NCBI GenBank assembly: GCA_964645355.1
Contig: CAZXZU010000002.1
Span: 1-59,471, forward strand
Source of the DNA: an uncultured Heliomicrobium sp.
GTDB lineage: Bacteria > Acidobacteriota > Blastocatellia > RBC074
Direction of reading: 5' to 3'
Length of the DNA stretch: 59,471 bases
Part shown: positions 15,592-46,865 of the stretch, piece after piece
Layout of the letters: the number at the start of each line of letters is the position of its first letter
How positions within the stretch are numbered: position 1 is the stretch's first letter
The notes under the pieces: model-generated
Told to the model about the DNA's origin: nothing
Databases searched by the model: none
Seen by the model: the letters and a program-made list of their open reading frames with translations, nothing else
Program-made: the position numbers and the translations under genes

Positions 15592-17007
15592 TCAGCGCCT
15601 GACCGCAGTTCGCCGTTTGGTGAAAGCGTTGCGGACGTAATCCCGAATCGAGCTTTGCAGCAGAGGCAATTCGCTTTCGTTCGTGGCGACGACCATCAAG
15701 CTCATGCTGCCCATTTCGTCGAACGAGCCTTCGCCCCAGGTGACGCGCTTCGGCGGCGAACTTGGGTTGTGTGGATTTTCAGCCGTGTTGTCATAAGTGA
15801 TCCTCACATCCAGCCGGGTTCCCTTCGGCAGCGAAACCGCTTCCTTGAATTGATACTGGCCTTGCCAGGCGAAGTCCCAGTCGTTGATCCAAAGCAGTTT
15901 TTTCTTCTCACCGTTCGGCAGCGTCGCCATCAAGTGCATCTGCTTAGCCAGGTAATGAGCATGCGCGCCTGTGCCATAAGCCTTCACATCAACCGGCAAC
16001 ACAAACGAATCCTGAATCGTGTACTCCTTCGCTCCTGGCGGAATGTCCAAACCTTCAAAGACGCCAAACAGCGGAGGCAGTTGAACTCCGGTGAAAGTTT
16101 TGGTCGGGGCTTTGTCGGCGAAGTAAATGCCAACGGTTGAAATCTCTTTTTCGACTTTGCCCGACGGATGGAAGTGAGACGACAAAACCAGATCGGAACC
16201 TTTCGGCAAAAAGTACGCCAGCCCAGCGGGCATTTCCTGCGATTGAGCACCGACCGCCCAACCGCCCAAACTGCCGCCCAGCCGCGCAGCCTGCGCCGGA
16301 GTTGAATTATTGCCCTGCCCTCCTAAACCGAACCGCGCGGCGAAGCGCTGGCCGGTGAAAGCCATGCCTCCGGCAAAACCCGGCTGCGGATCGGCTGCAT
16401 CCAGCTTGCGAGCTTCGCCGGTGGCGTCGCTGAAAAACAAGCTGTGATGAACCACCGTGCGAGCGCCCGGGCGAAATTCAATCGCGCGAACCCATTTGTC
16501 TTCGGTCAGATTCAGCGGCAAAGCGAAGTTGTGGTAAATGTCCGGGCCATCGGCAGGAATGGTAAACGCTTCGCTCATTTTGACTACCAGATCGGGTTTG
16601 CCCAATTGCCAACCTTCGGGAAATTTCGGCATCGCAGGCAGCTTGGCTGGATTGCCTTCGGGCATTCCGGCGGCGACCCATTGCTTGATAGTTTCGATCT
16701 GAGCCGAAGTCAGACGGCGTTCGTGTTTGAATTCGTAATCGCCTTTGTCCGCTTTCCACGGAGGCATCTGCCGCGATTCGGCGACGGTGGCCAGCAGCTT
16801 GCCGCGTTTTTTGGCGTCGGCGTAATTCATCAATGTGAACGGAGCGGCTTCGCCTGGGCGATGACACGACGTGCAGTTGTTGAAGATGATCGGCGCAACG
16901 TGTTCGGTGAAATTGACCGAAGCACTTTCCGCTCGCTTGCTGCTGAAAACTGCAACTCCCAGCACGACAGCCAAAACAAAAAACGATATGAACAACCTGA
17001 TCTTCAT
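15592..17007 (-). CDS. haem c-binding (CxxCH) protein with a copper type II ascorbate-dependent monooxygenase-like domain
   Basis: Signal peptide MKIRLFISFFVLAVVLGVAVF. NCTSCHRPGEAAPF...MPPW. Later VVHHSLFF and GAHAHYLAKQMHLM (H-H / H-x-H...M pattern). ATG 17007 has a GGAG RBS. The track ORF is extended 5' to 17280. Confidence 0.7.
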   Translation of the reverse strand: MKIRLFISFFVLAVVLGVAVFSSKRAESASVNFTEHVAPIIFNNCTSCHRPGEAAPFTLMNYADAKKRGKLLATVAESRQMPPWKADKGDYEFKHERRLTSAQIETIKQWVAAGMPEGNPAKLPAMPKFPEGWQLGKPDLVVKMSEAFTIPADGPDIYHNFALPLNLTEDKWVRAIEFRPGARTVVHHSLFFSDATGEARKLDAADPQPGFAGGMAFTGQRFAARFGLGGQGNNSTPAQAARLGGSLGGWAVGAQSQEMPAGLAYFLPKGSDLVLSSHFHPSGKVEKEISTVGIYFADKAPTKTFTGVQLPPLFGVFEGLDIPPGAKEYTIQDSFVLPVDVKAYGTGAHAHYLAKQMHLMATLPNGEKKKLLWINDWDFAWQGQYQFKEAVSLPKGTRLDVRITYDNTAENPHNPSSPPKRVTWGEGSFDEMGSMSLMVVATNESELPLLQSSIRDYVRNAFTKRRTAVRR

Positions 17008-17035
17008 ACTTTGCTCCTTCGGAACTACATGCTTT

Positions 17036-17623
17036 TCAATTTTGCGCGGTGATGTAACAGCCAATTGTTGAAGTCCGCGCAATGGGAACTTTGCGGTTTT
17101 GCAAAACTGCTTCGAGCGCGTTTCGCAGATCGCGTTCGGTAACAACGCGGCGAGGTTTGCCCAAAGCTTCGTAAAGATTATCAATCCGCCCGCGATAAAC
17201 GATTGCGCCTTTCTGCCCGACGACTGCAACTTCCGGCGTGATCGAAGCTCCGGCGGCGGCAACCAGTTGATGCTTAACATCGTGAATCACCGGAACTCCG
17301 GGCAGGTTGAATTCGCGCCCGTGCTTTTCAATCTCTTTCACCGAAGCCGCCGCGTCAACGTAAACCAAAAAGAAACGAACCGGCTTCGATTTGTAATCCT
17401 GCGCGATGCGAGCGATTTCCGGCGCAAACCGGTTGGAGATCGGGCAATCCTGCAAAATAAAAAACAGCACCGTCGCTTGCTGACCGTCCAGTTTGAAAGG
17501 CGATTGCGAACGCCCGGCAATGTCTTTGATCGTCAGTGAAACATCGGGCACGGTTTGCCGGTCTTGCGCCTGAACGCCAAGCGCGGCAATCGCCAAAAAC
17601 AAACTCAGCAAAACTTTCTTCAT
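17036..17623 (-). CDS. secreted redoxin/thioredoxin-fold protein (single-Cys CPIS motif)
   Basis: Signal peptide MKKVLLSLFLAIAALGVQAQ. ATVLFFILQDCPISNRFAPE has an AhpC/TSA-redoxin-like layout. ATG 17623 lies 8 nt after the upstream stop. Confidence 0.7.
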   Translation of the reverse strand: MKKVLLSLFLAIAALGVQAQDRQTVPDVSLTIKDIAGRSQSPFKLDGQQATVLFFILQDCPISNRFAPEIARIAQDYKSKPVRFFLVYVDAAASVKEIEKHGREFNLPGVPVIHDVKHQLVAAAGASITPEVAVVGQKGAIVYRGRIDNLYEALGKPRRVVTERDLRNALEAVLQNRKVPIARTSTIGCYITAQN

Positions 17624-17631
17624 ACAGTTCA

Positions 17632-18159
17632 TCAGCAAGTCAGTCGCGCGGCAAGCTCTGCAATCACAGCTTCGGCGCGAGCTTCGATTTCCGCTTTGGT
17701 TTGATCCTGAATCGGGTGAGCGACGTAAACCGCGTCAAAATCGCTTCGGCCAAGCGCGCTGGCTTGAGCGCGAGCGGCGGTCATGAATTCCGTCGTAGCC
17801 ACCGGAACCGATGGGATGCCAAGATTTTCCAGCCTCGTTGTGTCGTGCAAACTGCACGTCGTGCAAGACCCTCAATCAGCCAGGGCTTCGATCACGGCGT
17901 CGCATCGCGCCGCCAGCAACTGGTCAATGACTGCTTCAGGCGCGGGTTTGGTGAACGTAGGCTTCATCGCTCGAACGACCGAGGCCACGCCGTAACTTTC
18001 GCGCAGCAATGATTCCAGCCGGTCAAGAAAAACGCTGCCACCGGGTTTGCTGATGTCCAGCAAGCCGATGATTTTTCCGCTCAGTGTGCCGAGCTTCGGC
18101 GCGGCTTTGCGCTGTTCGCGGATGGTTTCATTCAGCGGATTAACGAGTGTGATTGGCAT
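17632..18159 (-). CDS. UGSC-motif selenoprotein (175 aa) with in-frame TGA at 17872-17874
   Basis: Track ORFs 17872-18213 and 17632-17850 share one frame. They are separated only by TGA plus 7 sense codons. Readthrough gives ...EALAD-U-GSCTTCSLHDTTRLENLG.... ATG 18159 has a purine-rich RBS, and the downstream piece has no ATG of its own. Confidence 0.75.
17842..17860 (-). promoter_or_regulatory. candidate bacterial SECIS stem-loop
   Basis: mRNA GACGUGCA-GUU-UGCACGAC: 7 base pairs with one A-A mismatch and a G/U-containing apical loop. It begins 11 nt 3' of the UGA. An overlapping alternative hairpin is UGCAC-GAC-GUGCA. Confidence 0.5.
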
Positions 18160-18174
18160 AAGTCTTTTCCTTTC

Positions 18175-18297
18175 TTCCACGAAGACACACGAAGTAAACA
18201 CGAAGAAAGGCAAAACATACTTGCGCCGCCTTTCATACTGAAAAAACTTTTCAGCCTGTCGAAGCCTTCGTGGTACTTCGTGTGCCTTCGTGGATGA
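18175..18297. repeat. CACGAAG-type palindromic intergenic element, copy 1
   Basis: Left arm has CACGAAG at 18178, 18188 and 18199. Right arm has CTTCGTG at 18266, 18276 and 18286. The arms are inverted. Nearly identical to 46781-46865. Confidence 0.9.
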
Positions 18298-18300
18298 AGT

Positions 18301-19902
18301 TCATTCAATCGGATACGTCACAACTTGGCTGCCGCGCCCGCCAGCCGCCCAACTGCCCACGACGGCGGAAAACTTTCCGGCGGTTCCGCCAGTAACGACG
18401 ATGCGAATCTGTTCCGGCGTGGCGAATTTGCGATAACACTCTTCGCCGTCAATCGTGACTTGCTGGTACATCTTTGTCAGTTGCGAACCTTCGCTGCCGT
18501 CGCCGGTGAATTCTCTGACCGGAATTCCCGTATTTTCAAACAGAAACTGACGAGCCGATTCTTTGGTGAATCCGTCGCGCTCCAAAGTTTTGACGTGCTC
18601 CGGGCACATCAGCACAAAAGCCTCAAACAACATGCACATCCTGTAATTCCAGACCGTAGCCAACGAACGCGAAATCGTCTTCAGAATTGTTTTGCCGTCG
18701 CGGGCGTAATGCTCGCTGACTCCGTGCGGAGGTTCGGCGGCAAACAGCGTGACGGCGCTTTGCTCAGGCTTGAAGCCTTGCTGGACGTGCAGCGGCGTCC
18801 AATCGCTGACTTCTTCGTTTTCGGCAATGCAGTAAGAAAACTTGCCGGGATTGCCCAGCGTGGACATATCAATTTCGCCGGGCTTGGCTCCGCCGATGTT
18901 GGTGATGATTAGCTGAAAAGCTCGGCCAAGCGTGCTGTTCGCTCGCGCGACATTGCTGAGTACGTTGCTACCACAAGCGAAACCGAGTTCTTGCCGAATT
19001 GGCCCGTTGACGACAATCATCGGCGCGGCAAAGTGAGTCGTCGCCTGAACTCCGTGCAGGTTGAACCGTTCGTCGCACACCGCTCGGATCAGAGGAATCA
19101 AAACGCGCATCATCTCCGGCGGACAACCAGCCATCACCGCGTTGGCTGCGATTTTTTCAACGGTCGCTTCGCCGTAGTTCGGCGGCACGCGAGCGATGAT
19201 TTCGTCAGGCAGCAGCTTTGTCGCTTGCAGCATTCGCTCGACTCGCTCAACCGTAGGCGGCACAACCGGCAAGTTGTCGAACTGCAAACAATACTCAAAA
19301 GGATCAACATCGTCGCCGAGTTCAATCCGCGAAGCCCGCTGCCCGCGCTGAGAATACAAATCCACTGCCGCAGCTTCCGTTCCCGCGCCTTCACCTTCCA
19401 GATGCCGCGAAGTGCAACCGGGCTTTGATTTCGGAGCGCCGTCGAATTCTTCGGCAATGATGACCGGTTCAATGCCGGTCATTTCGCATAACTTCGCGGC
19501 AATCGCGTTCAGCTCAGCTTTGTCAAAAGCGATTTCGGTCAGCGCGACTTTGCCCGCCGCATCCACCAAAAACAGCGTAGGCACAGCCACAGGATCGTAT
19601 TGCCGAGTCACAGCCAAATCGCCGTCCAGCACGACCGGGAAATGGACATTCATCTGCCTGACAAACTCTCGCGTCGCGGCTTCGCTGTCTTGAGAAACGC
19701 CGATGATCTCGGCGGAATCTGGCCGGATGGCTTTGGCCAGCTTGTTCAGGTAAGGAAACGTCAAACGGCAAGTCGGACAATCCGTCTCGAAGAAAACCAG
19801 CAGCGCCGGTTTAGGCTTCGCACCCAAACCGGCATAACGCAGTGATTTCCCATCAAGGTCAAACAGTGAAAATGATGGAGCTTGTTCGTTGATTGACAAC
19901 AT
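18301..19902 (-). CDS. thioredoxin-fold (CPTC) domain fused to a large C-terminal domain of unknown function
   Basis: N-terminus QAPSFSLFDLDGKSL...LLVFFETDCPTCRLTFPYLNKL is TlpA/redoxin-like. About 370 aa of unassigned C-terminus (..PVVPPTVERVERML..ANAVMAGCPPEMM..). ATG 19902 lies 2 nt after the radical SAM stop. Confidence 0.7.
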   Translation of the reverse strand: MLSINEQAPSFSLFDLDGKSLRYAGLGAKPKPALLVFFETDCPTCRLTFPYLNKLAKAIRPDSAEIIGVSQDSEAATREFVRQMNVHFPVVLDGDLAVTRQYDPVAVPTLFLVDAAGKVALTEIAFDKAELNAIAAKLCEMTGIEPVIIAEEFDGAPKSKPGCTSRHLEGEGAGTEAAAVDLYSQRGQRASRIELGDDVDPFEYCLQFDNLPVVPPTVERVERMLQATKLLPDEIIARVPPNYGEATVEKIAANAVMAGCPPEMMRVLIPLIRAVCDERFNLHGVQATTHFAAPMIVVNGPIRQELGFACGSNVLSNVARANSTLGRAFQLIITNIGGAKPGEIDMSTLGNPGKFSYCIAENEEVSDWTPLHVQQGFKPEQSAVTLFAAEPPHGVSEHYARDGKTILKTISRSLATVWNYRMCMLFEAFVLMCPEHVKTLERDGFTKESARQFLFENTGIPVREFTGDGSEGSQLTKMYQQVTIDGEECYRKFATPEQIRIVVTGGTAGKFSAVVGSWAAGGRGSQVVTYPIE

Positions 19903-21094: not shown

Positions 21095-24000
21095 TTATAC
21101 GCACTTCGAGAATCCGCAGTCGCGGCAGGTGTAACAGCCGCCAGCGTACTCAATCTGGTTGCTGCTGCATTCAGGGCAAGCGGTTATGACTTTCTTCGAA
21201 TCAATCATCACAGGTTTGATCGGGACGACGTTGGTTGTTGACGGTAGAGACGCAAAATTTTGCGTCTCTACTTTTCCGGCGGTTTGAGCCATTGCCAGCT
21301 TGGCGGCTTCGCGTGCGGAATCGGGTTGCTGCATCAAACGGCGCTTGGTCAGCATGATGCATTCGGCCACGACTTGTTCGGGTGAAGTGCATAACCGAGC
21401 GTTGAACCAGATCGAATGATTGCCGATGACCTTGTTCAAGCTGGCCGCGACTTCTTCGGGTTCGAATCCGCCGCGCAGCATCTTCGACGCCAGCAAGCCG
21501 ACTGAAACCGAAAGACCTCCGCCGGTGGCAAAAACTTCCAGCACTCGCGCGCCATCGTGATTGATCGTGACGTAAAGGTTTTGGTGATCGAACGAAACCT
21601 GCCAGGTTGAACCGGACAGTTCGCGCGGTCGTTCCAAACGCGGCAAGGTTTCGTGAACGGCCAAAGCGTTTTGATGAATTGCCTGAGCGGCTTCCGGCCC
21701 GGTTTCAACCCTCGTTTCAATTTTGACTTCAGGTTTGGCTTCGGCTTTTTGCTCGACAGGTTTTTCGGCGCTGACGGCGGTCAGCACTTGATTATCGCGC
21801 GAACCGTCGCGGTAATAACTGACGGCTTTGACGCCCATTTTCCAAGCCAGCCGATGCACGCGGTCGGTGTCCGCAACCGAATAACTGGCGGGCGCGTTGA
21901 CCGTTTTCGAAATCGAATTGTCCACGTTATCCTGAAAAGCTTTCAGCACACGCAGATGATGATCCGGGTCCAGCGTCATCGCATCAACAAAGTATTCCGG
22001 CAGTTTGTCGCGGTTTTCAACGATGTAAGTGGAGGCGCGTTCAATCGAAGCCGGATCGGATTGGTCGAGTTCGATACCCAAAGCTTTGGCTGCAATCGGG
22101 TGCGCGTAAGTGCGCGTGCCCAGCGTGTCGCGGCGAACGTAAGCGTACGAAAAATTCGGTTCGCAGCCGGAACTGGTTTCGGCTACCAGAGAAATCGTGC
22201 CGGTTGGCGCAACAGTCGTGACTTCGTAATTGCGCGGAGTCAGCGGGATCGAACGGTCAAGACCGACTTCGTTGTAAAGCAGGTCTTCGTAAAGATTGCG
22301 GTTCGGCTCGAATTCGGGCATCGCGCCTTTTTCAGCGCCCAGCGCCAGCGAAGCCAGCCAGGATTCTTTGCGGAAAAAGTCCATCATCTTGTCCGCCAGC
22401 AAAGCTGATTCTTCGCCGCCGTAACTGACGCGTTTCTGCAAACACAGATCGGCAAATCCCATAATGCCAAGTCCAACCGGGCGAGTGCGATGAACTGTGT
22501 CGTGAATCTGAGGCAGCGGCCAATCGCAAGTGTCAATCACGTTGTCCAGAAAGCGCACAGACCAGTAAATGTCTTTTGAAAAACCTTCCCAATCAACATC
22601 GTCGGTCGCTTCGTCGTAATACTTGGCCACGTCAATCGAACCCAGATTGCAGGCGTTGTAATCGTGCAGCATTTGTTCGGCGCAATTGTGAACAACGATG
22701 CCATTAGCAATGAACGAATGCGTGAGCGGTTCAGTCAAATCGAATACATCCTCTTCGCCATCTGGAATTACTATTTGAACAGTGGCTTCAAAGTGTTCTT
22801 GATTCGGCGTGCGCTTACGATTGGCAATAATGGTGTTCAGCTTTTCCTGTTTGGCAGTAGTCAAAAATCCGACTTCCTGAGCAAAGGTTTCCAGATTCAC
22901 CTTTGAAAAATGCAGTTCGTGTCGGGCTTGGGTTTGATAAGCCCGCGAACCGCCTTTGCCGTCAGGCAAAATAGTTTCTCCGGCCTGATGGCGATTCAGG
23001 TAAACCGTCGAAGCAATGCCAAAATTGAGCAGCAGTTGCTGAACCCCGTTTAGCAACGTTTCCGAAGTTGATGTCAGACGAACATGGTTGCCTTTCAGTG
23101 CATCCACATGAACAGTTCCATCGGCTGAAAACAGACCTTGTAAAAAACCGCGCTGGGTTTCTTCATTCCCACGCCATACGCAATCAGGAACAACCAACTT
23201 AGCTGCCCCCACGCCAAGTCCGCATTGCTCGGCAAGAATGTGAAGGCGCTCTGATTGGACGCGGGCTTCGCGGCGGTCTTCAATCCAGGAGACTTTGTTG
23301 AAATATGGGCGCGGAGCCTTAGTCAACGGCGCGGCCAATTCCGTCACGTATTTGGCAAACTGCTCTGCAATTTCAGCGTCATCGCCAAAGAAAGAGAGCA
23401 CGGCTTTTCCGTTCGTCATCGTGCCATCGCCGACCAACCATCCCATCACACGCCCTAATTCAAGCGAGCCTGCAGTGCCAAAGCCGCCCTTGCGATTCAG
23501 GATGTGAAGCTTGTCTCCCGGTTGCAAATCCTGCAATTCGATCCAGCCACGCGAAGTCATAATCTGATGATTGCCAGTTGCTCGCAGTGTGTAGCCTTCG
23601 GCAGTCATCAGACGGAAAACGGGCTTGCGGCCAGTCCAAAAGACAGAAGAGGCTTGAGAAGTTTTTTGTTCGTGTCCAAAACGACCGTCAATCACAGCTT
23701 CAACATCACGCTGTGAGTTAAACAACTCGCTTGCCGTGAAGATACCTTCGCCCGTGAAAATCCTGGTATCTCCAGTCACACATGGATTCGACGCCTTCTT
23801 CAATCCCATCGAATTCATCAGCGGGTTATGGCGGTTGACGTTGTCAATGAAGATGATGCCCGGCTCAGCCCAGCGATGCGTCGAAGAAATGATTCGCTCC
23901 CAAATGTCCGGCGCGAAAACCATTCCGGGTTTTGGCGGCTTCTGGCCTTTGAAGGTGTATTCGCCGCCCTCGCCACTTTCTGAATTGGCGGCTTTCGGAT

Positions 24001-24721
24001 CGAAGATAGCCATTTCCCACGGCTTGCCGTTGAATTCGGTGTGAAACCATTCGTTGTTTTCTACGGCTTGCAGAAATTTGTCGCTGACCGTGACTGAGAT
24101 GTTGAAGTTGGTCAGGCTCTTCTGGTCGTTCTTGGCGTGGATGAAGCGCAGAATGTCGGGGTGGCCAACGGCCAGAATTCCCATGTTCGCGCCGCGACGA
24201 ACTCCGCCCTGTTTGACGGTTTCGGTCATCGTGTTGACGATCTGCATGAACGAGATCGGGCCTGAAGCCATTCCGCGACCTTCGCCGACAGGCGTACCAG
24301 CCGGACGCAGCCGTTCGTAAGTCATCCCGGTTCCGCCGCCGGATTGATGAATCAGCGCGCAGTATTTGGCGTGCTCCATGATTCCGTCCAGCGAATCAGG
24401 CACCGGCAGCACGAAACAGGCCGCCAACTGGCCTTTGGGTTTTCCGGCGTTCACCAAACAAGGCGTGTTCGGGATGAAAGCGCGTTCGTGCATCAACCGC
24501 AGCATATTGAGCATGAACTCTTCGCGGCGGCGTGGGTCGGTTTCGGCTTTGGCCACGTGAGAAACAACCCGCCGGGTGATGTCATCCCAGGTTTCCAGCG
24601 GATTGCCTTGCAGGTCTTTCAGTGAATAGCGTTTGGCAACAACACGCTGCGCGTTTATGCCTAACGGGGTTTTGGTTGCGGGGCTGGCAAATTGAACGAT
24701 CTGTTGTCTGCTTGCGCTCAT
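21095..24721 (-). CDS. nrdJ: class II (adenosylcobalamin-dependent) ribonucleotide reductase carrying one intein and a C-terminal Zn-ribbon
   Basis: N-terminus AKRYSLKD...[21 protein letters not shown]. Active-site ASNP-C...-CAEQML is split by the intein. C-terminal part has a TSCPD-like segment, then CPEC...CYTCRDC. Confidence 0.9.
22685..23782 (-). mobile_element. 366-aa intein with a LAGLIDADG homing-endonuclease domain (residues 314-679 of NrdJ)
   Basis: Block [10 protein letters not shown]. Block [19 protein letters not shown] motifs GWLVGDGTM and [14 protein letters not shown]-terminal [10 protein letters not shown] followed by +1 Cys (CAEQ). Sampled lines are about 40-47% GC against about 57% in the exteins. 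Confidence 0.88.
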
Positions 24722-28871: not shown

Positions 28872-29986
28872 TTTGCCGGAAGGTCTACGATCTCAACCCA
28901 GTTGGGAATCCTGCCCAGCGCATATTCCTTGAGCTTGGTCAGCTTTCCAGTACCGGAAACAATCTGGTAACCGGACATCCGATGAGAGCGCATCCCGACT
29001 AAAAACAGATACCGCCCCGAAGAATCAATGCTGAAGCTGCGCGGCATCGTTTCGGTCGGGATGGTTTCGATCAGCATCAAGGTGCCATCCGTTGCATTGA
29101 CCTTGAACCCCGACAGCGTGTTCGTCGTGCGGTCTGAAGCGTAAAGAAACTTGCCGTCAGGCGTGATGTGCAAATCAGCGGCGGCAATCCGGCCCGTCGT
29201 GCCAGGCGGCAAGGCGCTGACGGACTGTTTCTCTTTGAGCTGCCCTTTAGCCGCATCGTAATCAAAAACATGCACCGCCGCATCCAGTTCGCCGAGCAGA
29301 TAAACCAGCTTGCCCTTTGGATGAAAGACCAGGTGGCGCGGGCCTGTTTTAGCTTTTACCGAAACCGATGGCGGCGTATTCGGCTCAAGCTTTCCGGTCT
29401 TCGCATCGAACTTCAGCACGTTGACCAAATCATTGCCCAGCGTCGCCGCCAACACGTACCGGTTTTTCGCATCCGCCAGAATCGAATGCGCGTTGGTCTG
29501 GTTTTCTAAAACCTGCTGCGTCGGCCCGATTACGCCGTTTGCTCCGATGGGGCTGACGGTGAATTTGTGACCTTGATACGAAGCCGCAAACAGAAAGCGG
29601 CCTGTATGGTCAGTCGAAATGTAAGGCATGCTGTCAACCAACGGCCCGCTGCCGATCAGTTTCAGCTTGCCGCTTTTTGGATCAATCGCGAAAGTGAAGA
29701 CGCTCTGCGGTTCGCCCCGCGTCGCCACAAACAGAAAGCGGCGATCCGGGCTGACCGTCATCGGCGTTGAACCGCCGGATTTGACGACGCCGGGAATCGC
29801 AACCTTCTCGACCAGCGTCAACTCGCCCGTCTGCCGATTCAGGTGCAAGACGTAAATGTCATTGCTTTCAGAGTTCCCGACATAAACGATTGTGGCCGCC
29901 TGCACAGGCGAAACCATCGCAGCGCCTGCAACGGTCGCCGCGGCGGAAAGCGCAATCCACAACGCCTGATGAAATAATCCTCGCAT
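28868..29986 (-). CDS. 7-bladed beta-propeller lactonase (6-phosphogluconolactonase-like)
   Basis: Signal peptide. Repeated V-x-(S/H)PDG(K/R)FL(Y/F)(V/A) blades (VSPDRRFLFVA, FHPKGKLVYLL, ITPDGKFLYAS, IDSSGRYLFLV). ATG 29986 overlaps the msrB TGA (TGATG). Confidence 0.8.
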   Translation of the reverse strand: MRGLFHQALWIALSAAATVAGAAMVSPVQAATIVYVGNSESNDIYVLHLNRQTGELTLVEKVAIPGVVKSGGSTPMTVSPDRRFLFVATRGEPQSVFTFAIDPKSGKLKLIGSGPLVDSMPYISTDHTGRFLFAASYQGHKFTVSPIGANGVIGPTQQVLENQTNAHSILADAKNRYVLAATLGNDLVNVLKFDAKTGKLEPNTPPSVSVKAKTGPRHLVFHPKGKLVYLLGELDAAVHVFDYDAAKGQLKEKQSVSALPPGTTGRIAAADLHITPDGKFLYASDRTTNTLSGFKVNATDGTLMLIETIPTETMPRSFSIDSSGRYLFLVGMRSHRMSGYQIVSGTGKLTKLKEYALGRIPNWVEIVDLPAK

Positions 29987-30444
29987 CAACTCACCTCTCC
30001 TTTGATCTTTTTCAGAGCTACAGCATTCATACAGTAACGCAATCCACTGGGTTCAGGCCCATCGGGGAACACGTGCCCCAGATGCGCGTCGCAAGTGTTG
30101 CAAACCGTTTCAACCCTGGACATTCCGTAATTGGTGTCTTCGTGATAGGCAATCGCGTTTTCCTTAACTGGCTGCGTAAACGAAGGCCAGCCCGTTCCGC
30201 TTTCAAACTTTTCACTGGCATCGAACAACAACGTGTCGCAGCAAACACAGCCGTACAACCCCGGCTCGAACAAACTGCACATTTCCGAACTGAAAGGGCT
30301 TTCCGTTCCGTGCTGGCGCGTCACAAAGTATTGCTCCGGCGTCAATTGCGCCTGCCATTCCGCATCAGTTTTGGTAATTTTTTGGTCGGGAGGCAGGTTT
30401 GAAATCCTGGCCAATCGAAGCACATCTAACCATTTCAGCAACAT
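29986..30444 (-). CDS. msrB: peptide-methionine (R)-S-oxide reductase
   Basis: Two CxxC zinc pairs (CVCC / CNTC), GTGWPSF, and the catalytic RYCMN motif. ATG 30444 overlaps the upstream stop (TGATG). Confidence 0.9.
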   Translation of the reverse strand: MLLKWLDVLRLARISNLPPDQKITKTDAEWQAQLTPEQYFVTRQHGTESPFSSEMCSLFEPGLYGCVCCDTLLFDASEKFESGTGWPSFTQPVKENAIAYHEDTNYGMSRVETVCNTCDAHLGHVFPDGPEPSGLRYCMNAVALKKIKGEVS

Positions 30445-30776
30445 CAGTCTCTTCTCCTTTTTTCGGTTTTCAAATTGAACTTTTGCAACAGCCAATCCAA
30501 GACGGCCTCTTGATCCTGTATCGTCGCTCGTCGGATTTGCGCCAGCAGATGAATTCGATCAGGTTTTGGTAGCACAGTATTTTGCAATCCTTCCTCGCAT
30601 TCGTCGCACATAATCCAAAAACGTGTGACGTCACCGGGCCGCGGGCATAGCCGAAGCAGTACTTGCCTCGTCGGTGTCGTTTCCCAAAAATCACTGATGA
30701 TGGCTCCACACATAGAACACACCTTGTTTTCAACTTCTCGATCAGCCAACGTAGATAATGCCAATGTTTGACGCAT
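30444..30776 (-). CDS. hypothetical 110-aa protein with a CxxC...CxxC zinc-ribbon-like pair
   Basis: CSMCG ... CDEC. Translationally coupled to msrB. No family recognised. Confidence 0.45.
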   Translation of the reverse strand: MRQTLALSTLADREVENKVCSMCGAIISDFWETTPTRQVLLRLCPRPGDVTRFWIMCDECEEGLQNTVLPKPDRIHLLAQIRRATIQDQEAVLDWLLQKFNLKTEKRRRD

Positions 30777-30790
30777 ACAGCCTCTTTCTT

Positions 30791-31445
30791 CGTCGCGTAG
30801 CGACGGTTTGAATTTAGCCGTGGGTTTTCAACCCACGGCAGCGATGTGATTGTCCCCGCGTCGCGTAGCGACGCTTGAATCAGCTTGCTCAACCCCACAA
30901 ATACCGTTCGTCGTATTCCACGCCCGCCTTGTCCAAAAACCCTCGGTACTCGTCTTCAAAGGCTTGCGATTGATGATGCACTCGTTGGTTTTGAATGTAT
31001 CGAATCACGCTTGGCACATTGGCTTTGCTGACGGTGAATGCGCCGTATCCGTCCTGCCAACCGAAATCCTGCAATTCGGGAAACTCATCGTGAATCCAAC
31101 TCGACGAATCGCCTTTCAGGTATTTCGCCATATCGCATGGCGCAATCGTCGTCGGAGCCAGCACCAGCGCATGTAAATGGTCTTCGATACCACCGATTTG
31201 CAAGGCCGTCATTTTGTGATGCCGCGCAACACCACCGACGTATTCCCAAATGCGGTTTTCCAACTCCGGCTTGATGAACGGCGCTCGGTTCTTCGTACTG
31301 AAAACGATGTGATAGAAAAGCGAGTTGTAGGTGTTGGCCATAATTCGTATCTCCATTCAAGCGTCGGCTACGCGACGCGGGGGATGCGTTAACGCTTTCC
31401 GTGGGTTGAAAACCCACGGCTAAAGTCAGCCGCCGCTCTGCGGCG
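30791..31445 (-). mobile_element. REP-RAYT unit: an IS200-like tyrosine transposase flanked by inverted REP hairpin clusters
   Basis: Left flank: CGTCGCgtaGCGACG-GTTTGAATTT-AGCCGTGGGTTTTCAACCCACGGC ... GCGTCGCgtaGCGACGC-TTGAAT. The right flank (31355-31445) carries the reverse complements: ATTCAA-GCGTCGgctaCGCGACGC ... CCGTGGGTTGAAAACCCACGG. Confidence 0.8.
30889..31341 (-). CDS. IS200/IS605-family Y1 transposase-like protein (REP-associated tyrosine transposase type)
   Basis: YNSLFYHIVFSTKNR, the HLHALV HUH region and YIQNQRVHH. About 150 aa. Flanked by REPs rather than IS ends. Confidence 0.85.
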   Translation of the reverse strand: MANTYNSLFYHIVFSTKNRAPFIKPELENRIWEYVGGVARHHKMTALQIGGIEDHLHALVLAPTTIAPCDMAKYLKGDSSSWIHDEFPELQDFGWQDGYGAFTVSKANVPSVIRYIQNQRVHHQSQAFEDEYRGFLDKAGVEYDERYLWG

Positions 31446-38892: not shown

Positions 38893-39318
38893 TTATGAAG
38901 GTCTGTTCTTTCGTTCTTCTTCACGTTCGGCGGCTTTGGCGCGAAGCGGGCGGCCTTTATCCGGCGTTGGGTCTTTGACCACGCCGTAAGCCGCAAGAGC
39001 TTCGTGGTCTTCGGGCAGATATTCAGTGATCGGCAAACCTTCGGGAGTGACGAACAACAGGCAGTGGCAATACTTATAAACCTGCATGTCGTCGCAAGCG
39101 CAAATCCATGTGCGATGAGTGACCTCTTCCTCTTTGTTCGTATAAAAGCGGCACGGGCAAAGCGGTTTGCCCAGCGTGTCTTTGTTGTAAGCCAGGCCGA
39201 GCACGACGGCTTCGGTGACTTCCTTGTCCGGGTGAACGCTGGTGCCGGATTTCTCGCAATACTTTTCAACGAAGTTGTTGATGCGCTTCAGGCTTTCTTC
39301 GCTGACTGTTTTACTCAT
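38893..39318 (-). CDS. ferredoxin:thioredoxin reductase catalytic-subunit-like protein
   Basis: CPCR...CAC...CHCLLF triad of CxC motifs. ATG 39318. The track ORF is extended through a palindromic repeat. Confidence 0.7.
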   Translation of the reverse strand: MSKTVSEESLKRINNFVEKYCEKSGTSVHPDKEVTEAVVLGLAYNKDTLGKPLCPCRFYTNKEEEVTHRTWICACDDMQVYKYCHCLLFVTPEGLPITEYLPEDHEALAAYGVVKDPTPDKGRPLRAKAAEREEERKNRPS

Positions 39319-39348
39319 GTTGATGACCTTTCCTGGGCGGAATTCGAT

Positions 39349-39431
39349 GCGGTACGGGGAGCGGTAGCGACCTGGTTGCTCGTGAAGTGCGTATGTCAAA
39401 GCGACCAGGTCGCTACCGCTCTTTGTACCGC
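39349..39431. repeat. GGTAGCGACC-type palindromic element, copy b
   Basis: gcGGTACGGGGAGCGGTAGCGACCTGGT, 27-nt spacer, ACCAGGTCGCTACCGCTCtttGTACCgc. Confidence 0.9.
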
Positions 39432-42426: not shown

Positions 42427-42601
42427 CACCGCGTTAGCGGTGGTTGAATTTAGCCGTGGATGAAACCCACGGGGAGCAAGCCCAATTTACCCACGTCGCG
42501 TCAGCGACGATTGAGTTCAGGCGTCGCTGACGCGACGCGGAGGCTCTTCTTGCTTACCCGGCGTTGAAACGCCGGGCTAATTTCAACCGTCGCTCCGCGA
42601 C
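42427..42601. repeat. cluster of TTGAAT-tailed REP hairpins (five or more units)
   Basis: CACCGCgttaGCGGTG-GTTGAATTT-AGCCGTGGATGAAACCCACGG; CGTCGCgtcaGCGACG-ATTGAGTT; GCGTCGCtgacGCGACGC; CCCGGCGttgaaaCGCCGGG; AATTTCAAC-CGTCGCtccGCGACG. Confidence 0.85.
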
Positions 42602-42703
42602 GAAGAACAGGCCGAGCAGTTACGAAGAATCAAGATTGGGACTGAAGTGCTTTCCGACTTCTTTCCTGCTTTGCGTCTTTGCGGCTTTGCGTGAGCCTGT
42701 TTC

Positions 42704-46780: not shown

Positions 46781-46865
46781 TTCCACGAAGTCACACGAAG
46801 TTTCACGAAGAAAAGCAAAATCACCTATTTCCACTTCGTGTTTCCTTCGTGTGCCTTCGTGGATA
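46781..46865. repeat. CACGAAG-type palindromic intergenic element, copy 2
   Basis: CACGAAG at 46784, 46794 and 46804. CTTCGTG at 46834, 46845 and 46855. Same orientation and same position (just 5' of a minus-strand start) as copy 1. Confidence 0.9.

What the first reader, a model, noticed from the sequence alone, without database searches (positions are those of the whole stretch)
17632..18159. In-frame TGA fuses two track ORFs into a single U-G-S-C selenoprotein gene
Track ORFs 17872-18213 and 17632-17850 (both minus) are in the same frame. They are separated only by TGA (17872-17874) and seven sense codons (GGG TCT TGC ACG ACG TGC AGT). Reading TGA as selenocysteine gives one 175-aa product, ...VIEALAD-U-GSCTTCSLHDTTRLENLGIP....

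The downstream half has no ATG or RBS of its own; the track start is a TTG inside the continuous frame. The upstream half has ATG 18159 with a purine-rich RBS.

The literal U-G-S-C motif matches what I recall as a curated 'UGSC family (seleno)protein'. A stem-loop (GACGUGCA-GUU-UGCACGAC, 17842-17860) begins 11 nt 3' of the UGA, which is the spacing known for the E. coli fdhF SECIS. Ordinary gene callers would truncate or split this gene.
Basis: partly seen in the sequence, partly recalled or inferred. Interest (0 to 1): 0.78.

Follow-up and report, generated by a model that had tools for sequence, protein, structure and literature searches.

The report
UGSC-family selenoprotein gene with SECIS hairpin

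Summary
On the minus strand, ATG 18159 to TGA 17634-17632 is one frame, interrupted only by TGA 17874-17872.

With U read as C, the 175-aa product matches NCBIfam NF041046 'UGSC family (seleno)protein' (152 bits, cutoff 125). It also matches Pfam PF24696 end to end.

All 82 related loci (two are duplicate fetches of L041), almost all from Acidobacteriota, keep TGA at this column and continue in frame with GSCTTCSLHD. Purifying selection is equal on both sides of the TGA (pS/pN 0.69/0.23 upstream, 0.74/0.20 downstream).

Five codons, at nt +16 to +30 from the UGA, show almost no synonymous variation (pS 0.026). They form a 6-bp hairpin with a GUU loop at 17844-17858. It meets the published bacterial SECIS criteria (stability only borderline for the bare hairpin) and places G23 and U24 in the same register as E. 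coli fdhF.

Other genes in the window, and this gene itself, end at TGA, so the genetic code is not reassigned. The window holds no sel genes and no tRNA-Sec, so the decoding machinery could not be checked.

The family has been described since about 2007-2008. Function is uncharacterised.

Two side results:
- A conserved neighbour carries an unannotated ~370-aa domain, here fused to a TlpA-like thioredoxin domain.
- There is a weak, recurrent similarity to the UxxCxxC site of GrdB.

The parts
17632..18159 (-). UGSC-family selenoprotein gene: 175 codons including Sec96, plus the stop TGA 17634-17632, which is followed by a second in-frame TGA at 17631-17629.
   Evidence: Translation. NF041046 scores 152.1 bits against a cutoff of 125. 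PF24696 scores 160 bits over residues 5-174, profile positions 2-171 of 172. Codon alignment of 81 homologues.
17872..17874 (-). UGA codon read as selenocysteine (U96), first residue of the motif U-G-S-C-T-T-C (UxxCxxC).
   Evidence: TGA sits at this column in 82 of 82 related loci. Cys occupies the column in full-length homologues. pS/pN is 0.74/0.20 downstream against 0.69/0.23 upstream.
17844..17858 (-). Core SECIS hairpin: stem C17-G31, G18-C30, U19-A29, G20-C28, C21-G27, A22-U26. The apical loop G23 U24 U25 lies at 17852-17850.
   Evidence: Codons ACG TGC AGT TTG CAC are identical in 81/81 sequences (TTG in 77/80), while every other invariant residue varies synonymously (pS 0.026). The RNAalifold consensus gives this hairpin. 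Its energy is -7.4 kcal/mol, z = -2.68. It has the same G23/U24 and U26-C30 register as E. coli fdhF.
17831..17870 (-). Extended hairpin predicted in this window only. The lower stem pairs nt 5-11 with nt 38-44. It is not conserved as a pairing scheme among homologues.
   Evidence: The 45-nt fold gives -14.3 kcal/mol. RNAalifold finds no consensus lower stem.
18164..18178 (-). Purine-rich ribosome-binding region GGAAGAAAGGAAAAG, upstream of ATG 18159.
   Evidence: Read from the sequence. It overlaps one arm of an intergenic inverted repeat.
18301..19902 (-). Conserved upstream partner gene (533 aa from ATG 19902). It has an N-terminal TlpA/ResA-like thioredoxin domain with C42-P-T-C45, and an unannotated C-terminal domain of about 370 aa.
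   Evidence: AhpC-TSA/Redoxin domains cover residues 6-131 and nothing matches the rest. The gene lies directly upstream on the same strand in about 65 of 76 related loci that have enough flank. The same domain lies next to Cys-type UGSC genes in other lineages.
17036..17632 (-). Downstream redoxin-family gene with a predicted signal peptide. Its candidate ATG at 17632 overlaps the UGSC stop codon (TGATGA).
   Evidence: Pfam Redoxin/AhpC-TSA. It is conserved downstream in only 6 of the closest loci, so it is probably not a core part of the system.

Best explanation
This is one gene for a 175-residue selenoprotein of the UGSC family.

**Recoding step.** During translation the UGA at 17874-17872 is decoded as selenocysteine. 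The hairpin 13 nt downstream of the UGA (nt 17-31 counted from its U, loop G23-U24-U25) acts as a bacterial SECIS. It would recruit SelB.GTP.Sec-tRNA(Sec) to the ribosome when the UGA reaches the A site. The gene's own terminal UGA has no such hairpin and terminates translation. This much is shown by the comparative evidence, short of biochemistry.

**Protein (inferred).** It is a cytoplasmic redox module. In the model of a Cys homologue the Sec/Cys sits at the N-terminus of a helix, directly after a beta-strand, in a flavodoxin-like alpha/beta fold. It heads a UxxCxxC motif. Sec96 would form a selenenylsulfide with Cys99 or Cys102 during turnover.

**Partner (inferred).** The protein most likely works with the product of the adjacent conserved gene. 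That gene carries an unannotated ~370-aa domain with two invariant cysteines. In Acidobacteriota it is fused to a TlpA-like CxxC thioredoxin domain, which could re-reduce the selenenylsulfide.
For: **Family membership.**
- NF041046 scores 152.1 bits against a cutoff of 125, and PF24696 matches full length.

**Sec or Cys at the column.**
- Truncated homologues end at EALAD, and full-length ones have CGSC.
- 82 of 82 related loci, at 66-92% amino-acid identity, have TGA followed by GSCTTCSLHD in frame.

**Translation past the UGA.**
- pS/pN is 0.74/0.20 downstream and 0.69/0.23 upstream.

**RNA element.**
- There is near-zero synonymous variation in exactly the five codons that form the hairpin. 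The RNAalifold consensus is that hairpin.
- All four bSECIS consensus criteria quoted in PMC13188914 are satisfied, the energy one only marginally for the bare hairpin: loop 3-9 nt, stem 4-16 bp, a G followed by G or U at the start of the loop within an N1...N2 pair (here A-GUU-U), spacing 16-37 nt (here 19), and an MFE limit of -7.5 kcal/mol. The measured energy is -7.4 kcal/mol for the hairpin alone and -14.3 over 45 nt.
- The hairpin is in register with the fdhF SECIS, whose sequence was verified in 5419 E. coli genomes.
- Distant Cys-type genes lack the hairpin (L086-L088).

**No code reassignment.**
- TGA ends the partner gene, the radical-SAM gene, the GH43 gene and this gene itself.

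**Published background.**
- Selenoproteins are reported in Acidobacteria (PMC1794560).
- The UGSC family is an established predicted selenoprotein family (PMC2398784 and PMC13188914).

**Fold.**
- The AF2 model of the Cys homologue P0003 has pLDDT 90, and its best PDB matches are flavodoxin-like.

**Partner.**
- Adjacency is shown.
Against: - No selA, selB, selD or tRNA-Sec gene lies in the 59-kb window. The machinery is therefore assumed, not shown.
- The stem never varies, so there is no compensatory covariation. The structural argument rests on synonymous-site conservation.
- No Rfam family matches the element.
- Nothing here tests selenium incorporation or any enzymatic activity.
- The partner's fold could not be modelled. 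Over the domain's first ~230 residues (about 170-400) pLDDT is mostly 25-65, with a few short stretches higher.
- About 11 of 76 loci lack the partner within 4 kb.
Confidence: 0.93

Rival explanations
1. UGA is suppressed by a non-Sec tRNA. Candidates are an acidobacterial allo-tRNA opal suppressor or a SelC*-like tRNA(Cys). Position 96 would then be Cys, Ser or another residue rather than Sec.
For: PMC5389517 reports tRNAs with 8/4 and 9/3 structures in Acidobacteria that may act as nonsense suppressors, and SelC* tRNA(Cys) in other phyla. The Sec machinery was not found in the window.
Against: A general suppressor would not explain the invariant hairpin in fdhF register with a G-U loop. It would also read through the many genuine TGA stops in the window. 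The family is curated as a selenoprotein family.
Confidence: 0.04
2. The TGA is a genuine stop. The locus would encode a 95-aa protein, plus either a separate 72-aa protein started at TTG 17850 or an untranslated remnant.
For: This is what standard gene callers output. The NCBI record of the Blastocatellia AA13 homologue has two separate genes, both hitting PF24696 (L002).
Against: One Pfam domain spans both halves. Cys-type homologues are single proteins. There is no conserved start or RBS for the second half. The seven codons between the TGA and the TTG are invariant at the amino-acid level while varying synonymously. Purifying selection downstream equals that upstream.
Confidence: 0.015
3. 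The gene is a pseudogene: a Cys codon (TGT/TGC) of a Cys-type UGSC gene mutated to TGA, or a sequencing error produced the TGA.
For: TGA is one substitution away from TGT or TGC. Single-contig variants with TGT, GGA or CGA at this column do exist.
Against: TGA is present in 82 of 82 loci from different MAGs spanning classes of Acidobacteriota at saturated synonymous divergence. A pseudogene would not keep its frame and its amino-acid conservation.
Confidence: 0.01

Closest known systems
UGSC family (seleno)protein (NCBIfam NF041046, Pfam PF24696), the 'UGSC-containing protein' of Zhang and Gladyshev
   Same: Full-length HMM match above the curated cutoff. It has the literal U-G-S-C motif at the family's Sec/Cys column, a length of about 175 aa, and a predominance of Sec over Cys forms among close relatives. 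This matches the GOS survey, which counted 255 Sec and 21 Cys forms (PMC2398784).
   Different: Nothing essential differs; it is a typical member. The literature guessed a thioredoxin-like fold, but the AF2 model of a 54%-identical Cys homologue is flavodoxin-like.
E. coli fdhF SECIS, the minimal SelB-binding hairpin GGUUGCAGGUCUGCACC
   Same: The hairpin starts the same distance from the UGA. G23 and U24 are in the apical loop at identical positions counted from the U of UGA. The 3' arm U26-G27-C28-A29-C30 is identical in sequence and position.
   Different: The loop is GUU (or AGUUU) instead of GGUC. There is no bulged U17. The stem is a perfect 6 bp. There is no conserved long lower stem. 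SelB binding was not tested.
Selenoprotein B of glycine, sarcosine, betaine and D-proline reductases (GrdB, GrdF, GrdH, PrdB; TIGR01917, TIGR01918)
   Same: It shares the UxxCxxC motif (the GrdB motif is given in PMC13188914). There is local HMM similarity centred on the Sec site: 20 of 37 UGSC members independently hit TIGR01917 (best E = 4.4e-5), and some also hit GrdF, GrdH and TIGR01918. Both are two-gene systems with a second, larger subunit.
   Different: Scores are far below the cutoffs (19 bits against 602). Only about 50 residues align. The protein has 175 aa against about 430. No GrdE/PrdA-type pyruvoyl proprotein, GrdA or GrdC lies nearby. The hosts are soil Acidobacteriota rather than amino-acid-fermenting anaerobes.
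TlpA/ResA-type thiol-disulfide oxidoreductases (N-terminal domain of the partner gene only)
   Same: The AhpC-TSA/Redoxin domain carries CPTC. The best solved relatives are ResA structures (E = 1e-16).
   Different: There is no signal peptide or membrane anchor. The domain is fused to a ~370-aa domain with no Pfam or NCBIfam family. Databases name the whole protein 'TlpA family protein disulfide reductase' or 'peroxiredoxin' from the N-terminal domain alone.

Membership tests
UGSC family (seleno)protein (NF041046 / PF24696) | Whole-protein HMM score at or above the curated cutoff | tested here: met
   NF041046 scores 152.1 bits against a cutoff of 125. PF24696 scores 160 bits against 25, covering residues 5-174 on profile positions 2-171 of 172. 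The scan used U replaced by C.
UGSC family (seleno)protein (NF041046 / PF24696) | U/C-G-S-C motif at the conserved column | tested here: met
   TGA-GGG-TCT-TGC in the window. G97, S98 and C99 are invariant, and C96 is at least 90% conserved among full-length homologues.
UGSC family (seleno)protein (NF041046 / PF24696) | Selenium actually incorporated at the UGA | not testable with these tools
   This needs 75Se labelling or mass spectrometry. According to PMC13188914, almost all such families are known only from bioinformatics.
Bacterial SECIS (consensus model quoted in PMC13188914) | Apical loop of 3-9 nt on an upper stem of 4-16 bp | tested here: met
   Loop GUU (3 nt) on a 6-bp stem, or AGUUU (5 nt) on 5 bp.
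Bacterial SECIS (consensus model quoted in PMC13188914) | G in the first two loop positions, followed by G or U, within an N1...N2 closing pair | tested here: met
   A22-G23-U24-U25-U26. G23 and U24 are invariant in 81/81 sequences. Position 25 is U in 77, C in 3 and A in 1.
Bacterial SECIS (consensus model quoted in PMC13188914) | [quoted passage not shown] | tested here: met
   19 nt (positions 4-22) separate the UGA from G23.
Bacterial SECIS (consensus model quoted in PMC13188914) | MFE of -7.5 kcal/mol or lower | tested here: inconclusive
   The core hairpin alone gives -7.4 kcal/mol, marginally short of the limit. The 45-nt stretch starting at the UGA gives -14.3 kcal/mol, but its lower stem is not conserved.
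Bacterial SECIS (consensus model quoted in PMC13188914) | selA, selB, selC (tRNA-Sec) and selD present in the same genome | not testable with these tools
   None is present in the window, nor in the ~8-kb flanks of 80 related loci for tRNA-Sec. The rest of the genome is not available.
GrdB/PrdB selenoprotein B family (TIGR01917 / TIGR01918) | HMM score above the curated cutoff | tested here: not met
   18.9 bits against a cutoff of 602.2, and 13.9 bits against 65.45. Only residues ~76-127 align.
GrdB/PrdB selenoprotein B family (TIGR01917 / TIGR01918) | UxxCxxC selenocysteine motif | tested here: met
   U96-G-S-C99-T-T-C102. The GrdB motif is taken from PMC13188914.
GrdB/PrdB selenoprotein B family (TIGR01917 / TIGR01918) | Genomic association with GrdA/GrdC/GrdE or PrdA | tested here: not met
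   No such domains appear among the neighbouring genes. The conserved neighbour has no recognisable family.
Thioredoxin-fold selenoproteins (the literature's guess for UGSC) | Thioredoxin fold with the redox motif at the N-terminus of helix 1 | tested here: not met
   The AF2 model of Cys homologue P0003 (pLDDT 90.2) is a five-stranded beta-alpha repeat. Its best PDB matches are flavodoxin, riboflavin/lumazine synthase, CheB receiver and the MttC corrinoid protein (TM at most 0.5), and none is a thioredoxin. The model is of a homologue, not of the window protein itself.

The most novel reading that the evidence does not exclude
The UGSC selenoprotein and the unannotated ~370-aa domain encoded next to it could form a two-subunit selenoenzyme that has not been characterised. 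Its Sec site (UxxCxxC after a beta-strand) would be evolutionarily related to that of GrdB/PrdB. That would make it a substrate reductase, rather than a generic antioxidant, operating in aerobic soil Acidobacteriota. The fused TlpA-like domain would play the electron-delivery role that the thioredoxin system and GrdA play in glycine reductase. The pairing holds for both Sec-type and Cys-type genes and for both gene orders, and the partner has more than 6,500 homologues without any family annotation.
Probability: 0.2. Interest if true: 0.55.

Novelty: already known. Interest (0 to 1): 0.25.

Why it matters
**Annotation.** Gene callers split or truncate this gene. In the protein database dozens of homologues end at ...EALAD, and one NCBI record holds two fragments. 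Recognising it restores a full-length selenoprotein and shows that this Blastocatellia-like organism uses selenocysteine.

**Biology.** The case adds nothing new in kind. The family, its Sec codon and its abundance have been published since about 2007-2008, and a curated HMM already names it.

**Open question.** The family's function is still unknown. Two leads come from this work. One is the conserved, unannotated partner domain with two invariant cysteines. The other is the recurrent local similarity to the GrdB Sec site.

Tried and rejected
- **Rfam.** Neither the whole window nor the local region at E <= 10 gave a SECIS family match. The only local hit was a chance DUF3577 match.
- **Thermodynamics alone.** The 66-nt region folds no better than shuffles (z = -0.57). 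Only the 19-nt hairpin stands out (z = -2.68).
- **Covariation.** The stem is invariant, so it gives no compensatory changes. No conserved lower stem was found.
- **Sec machinery.** There is no tRNA in the window. No SelA, SelB or SelD domains appear in 33 other ORFs scanned. No tRNA-Sec lies in the flanks of the related loci.
- **Other selenoprotein genes in the window.** A mechanical scan of TGA-joined ORFs found no other credible candidate.
- **Solved structures by sequence.** Nothing significant was found for UGSC, either as a single sequence or as a profile.
- **Structure of the partner.** The AF2 model has mean pLDDT 65 and mostly 25-65 over the first ~230 residues of the unknown domain, so it was not used for a fold search.
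- **'Unknown_1' domain.** The figure showing the UGSC fusion in PMC2398784 is an image, so it could not be compared with the partner domain.
- **The search for related loci with the mixed alignment.** It failed because no conserved stretch was available. The single protein was used instead.

Full report
**1. The observation**

On the minus strand the frame opened by ATG 18159 runs to TGA 17634-17632. It is interrupted once, by TGA at 17874-17872. They are separated by the TGA and by GGG TCT TGC ACG ACG TGC AGT.

The product reads MPITL...VIEALAD-U-GSCTTCSLHD...ARLTC, 175 residues. A purine-rich stretch, GGAAGAAAGGAAAAG, precedes the ATG.

The gene ends with two tandem TGA codons. UGA is therefore both a sense codon and a stop codon within the same gene.

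In-frame TGA junctions are common by chance. One search lists more than 100 in this window, almost all in non-coding frames. The observation becomes meaningful only with the evidence below.

**2. What it is**

With U replaced by C, the product scores 152.1 bits on NCBIfam NF041046 'UGSC family (seleno)protein' (cutoff 125). It scores 160 bits on Pfam PF24696 over residues 5-174, profile positions 2-171 of 172. One domain therefore spans both halves.

A search of 5.8 billion proteins returned 979 relatives. Dozens cover exactly 54% of the query and end at ...EALAD. Those that cover the full length have Cys at the column, CGSC.

A scan of one genome per species returned 80 loci. Almost all come from Acidobacteriota MAGs: Blastocatellia, Bryobacterales and Terriglobia. 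A few carry odd taxonomic labels. With two loci fetched earlier, which duplicate L041, that makes 82 loci.

In all 82 loci the codon is TGA, and the frame continues with GSCTTCSLHD.

A Nei-Gojobori-type count on 81 distinct genes gave the following:

| Region | pS | pN |
|---|---|---|
| Upstream of the UGA | 0.69 | 0.23 |
| Downstream of the UGA | 0.74 | 0.20 |

The downstream half is therefore translated in this frame and is under the same purifying selection as the upstream half.

The partner gene, the radical-SAM gene, the GH43 gene and this gene itself all terminate at TGA. This excludes a reassigned genetic code.

**3. The recoding signal**

In the codon alignment, every invariant amino-acid column uses several synonymous codons (entropy 0.4-2.2 bits). 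Five consecutive codons are the exception:

| Codon | Residue | Sequences with this codon |
|---|---|---|
| ACG | Thr101 | 81/81 |
| TGC | Cys102 | 81/81 |
| AGT | Ser103 | 81/81 |
| TTG | Leu104 | 77/80 |
| CAC | His105 | 81/81 |

Across these five codons pS is 0.026, against about 0.7 elsewhere.

These are nt 16-30 counted from the U of UGA. Together with G31 they form the hairpin C17-G31, G18-C30, U19-A29, G20-C28, C21-G27, A22-U26, with loop G23-U24-U25. In window coordinates this is 17844-17858. It is also the RNAalifold consensus.

The hairpin alone folds at -7.4 kcal/mol (z = -2.68). The 45 nt starting at the UGA fold at -14.3 kcal/mol.

The consensus bacterial SECIS model is quoted in PMC13188914. 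It requires:
- a loop of 3-9 nt;
- a stem of 4-16 bp;
- a G followed by G or U at the start of the loop, inside an N1...N2 pair;
- 16-37 nt between the UGA and the loop;
- an MFE of -7.5 kcal/mol or lower.

The first four are met. The spacing here is 19 nt. The energy criterion is marginal for the bare hairpin (-7.4) and is met by the 45-nt fold.

I recalled the E. coli fdhF SECIS sequence from memory and verified it: it is 100% identical in fdhF of 5419 of 5426 E. coli genomes. Laid in register from the UGA, fdhF and this gene share G23, U24 and U26-G27-C28-A29-C30. That G23 and U24 are the SelB-contacting bases in fdhF comes from my own knowledge, not from a tool.

Controls:
- Distant Cys-type genes (L086-L088) lack the hairpin, even though their peptide motif is similar (GSCTSW/C).
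- A TGT variant (L084) and two GGA variants (L083, L085) keep it. This is expected for recent derivatives of Sec forms, or for sequencing errors.

Limits:
- The stem never varies, so there is no compensatory covariation.
- Rfam has no matching family.
- No sel gene or tRNA-Sec lies in the window or in the flanks of the related loci. The decoding machinery is therefore inferred.
- Selenoproteins are reported for Acidobacteria (PMC1794560).

**4. The protein and its partner**

The model has pLDDT 90.2 and pTM 0.85.

It is a repeated beta-alpha unit with five strands. The Cys/Sec sits at the N-terminus of the helix that follows strand 3. The best PDB matches are flavodoxin-like folds with TM at most 0.5, and no thioredoxin appears. 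The 'likely Trx-like fold' proposed in PMC2398784 is therefore not supported, and the family has no close solved relative.

The motif here is U96-x-x-C99-x-x-C102. That is the UxxCxxC motif of GrdB (PMC13188914).

Scanned individually, 20 of 37 UGSC proteins hit the GrdB model TIGR01917 around its Sec site (best E = 4.4e-5). Some also hit GrdF, GrdH and the PrdB-inclusive TIGR01918. No other family recurs. Scores are far below the cutoffs. This is at most distant, local homology, not membership.

The gene directly upstream (18301-19902, 533 aa) has a cytoplasmic TlpA/ResA-like domain with CPTC. It also has about 370 residues with no Pfam or NCBIfam family.

That gene lies directly upstream on the same strand in about 65 of 76 related loci with enough flank. 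Its C-terminal domain has more than 6,555 homologues, all named only after their N-terminal domain.

The same domain, without the thioredoxin module, lies directly downstream of Cys-type UGSC genes in Sphingobium baderi (L087) and one unidentified metagenome contig (L086). It lies upstream in three other loci. It carries two invariant cysteines, AVMAGC and FSYC-AE-E, plus a PEH motif.

The AF2 model of the 533-aa protein was confident only for the thioredoxin domain. The partner's fold is therefore unknown.

From this I infer, without having shown it, a two-protein redox system. Sec96 would be the nucleophile. It would form a selenenylsulfide with C99 or C102, and the fused CxxC domain would recycle it.

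**5. Comparison with what is known, and verdict**

The 'UGSC-containing protein' was one of the most abundant predicted selenoprotein families in the GOS survey, with 255 Sec and 21 Cys forms (PMC2398784). It is listed with NF041046 in a 2026 review, which notes that such families are uncharacterised biochemically (PMC13188914).

The window gene is a typical member.

What remains open is the family's function. The conserved partner domain and the GrdB-like site are leads, not findings.

Confidence that this is a single Sec-containing UGSC gene with a SECIS hairpin is 0.93.

The rivals are:
- suppression by a non-Sec tRNA (allo-tRNAs in Acidobacteria, PMC5389517);
- a genuine stop with two separate products;
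- a pseudogene.

Together they hold about 0.07.

Noticed in passing
window 18172-18196 / 18274-18298, and 46783-46802 / 46843-46862: The spacer between the partner gene and the UGSC gene holds a 25-nt inverted repeat, 92% complementary with arms 77 nt apart. Its arm, CCACGAAGGCACACGAAGTA, recurs as a second inverted pair near 46.8 kb (4 matches against 0.01 expected). It looks like a small dispersed palindromic (REP- or MITE-like) element. The spacer length varies from 12 to about 200 nt among related loci, so it is an insertion and not part of the conserved operon.
   Followed up: partly
L083:705, L085:2777, L084:1229 (and P0004, for which no DNA was available): Rare homologues carry GGA (Gly), CGA (Arg, inferred) or TGT (Cys) in place of the Sec TGA, yet keep the SECIS-like hairpin (loop GUG or GUU). 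They are either recent Sec-to-other substitutions or sequencing errors. Each is a single contig.
   Followed up: partly
window 18301-19400 (-), and L086:3421-4476, L087:3130-4197: A domain of about 350-370 aa has no Pfam or NCBIfam family and more than 6,555 homologues. It has invariant AVMAGC, ATTH, RAN-T-GRA, C-AE-E and PEH motifs. It lies next to UGSC genes in Acidobacteriota, where it is fused to a thioredoxin domain, and in Alphaproteobacteria, where it stands alone. The AF2 model was not confident.
   Followed up: partly
P0090 and P0062 (database proteins): P0090 reads from the C-terminus of the partner domain straight into the UGSC N-half, as a fusion or a lost stop. P0062 joins a thioredoxin-like segment to the UGSC C-half, possibly through a chimeric assembly. 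This may correspond to the 'UGSC/Unknown_1 fusion' of PMC2398784, which could not be checked.
   Followed up: no
window 15592-17280 (-): The 562-aa mechanical ORF probably starts near 17004, at MKIRLF..., a signal peptide. It has a CxxCH motif (NCTSCH) and no Pfam or NCBIfam family. Together with the secreted redoxin at 17036-17632, it follows UGSC only in the closest relatives: 10 and 6 of 82 loci respectively.
   Followed up: no
window 21095-24721 (-): The ribonucleotide reductase large-subunit gene is interrupted by an intein with a LAGLIDADG homing-endonuclease domain.
   Followed up: no
window 42557-42602 (+): An Acido-Lenti-1 small RNA (Rfam RF01687) scores 50.2 bits against a gathering threshold of 37. 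This fits an acidobacterial origin for the window.
   Followed up: no
window 30889-31356 (-) and 29986-30495 (-): An IS200-like Y1 transposase gene lies next to an MsrB (SelR-domain) methionine sulfoxide reductase gene. A ferredoxin-thioredoxin reductase beta-chain homologue lies at 38893-39399.
   Followed up: no
window 17629-17634 (-): The UGSC gene ends in two tandem TGA codons. The downstream redoxin's candidate ATG (17632-17630) overlaps them (TGATGA). This suggests tight or coupled translation of the two genes.
   Followed up: no
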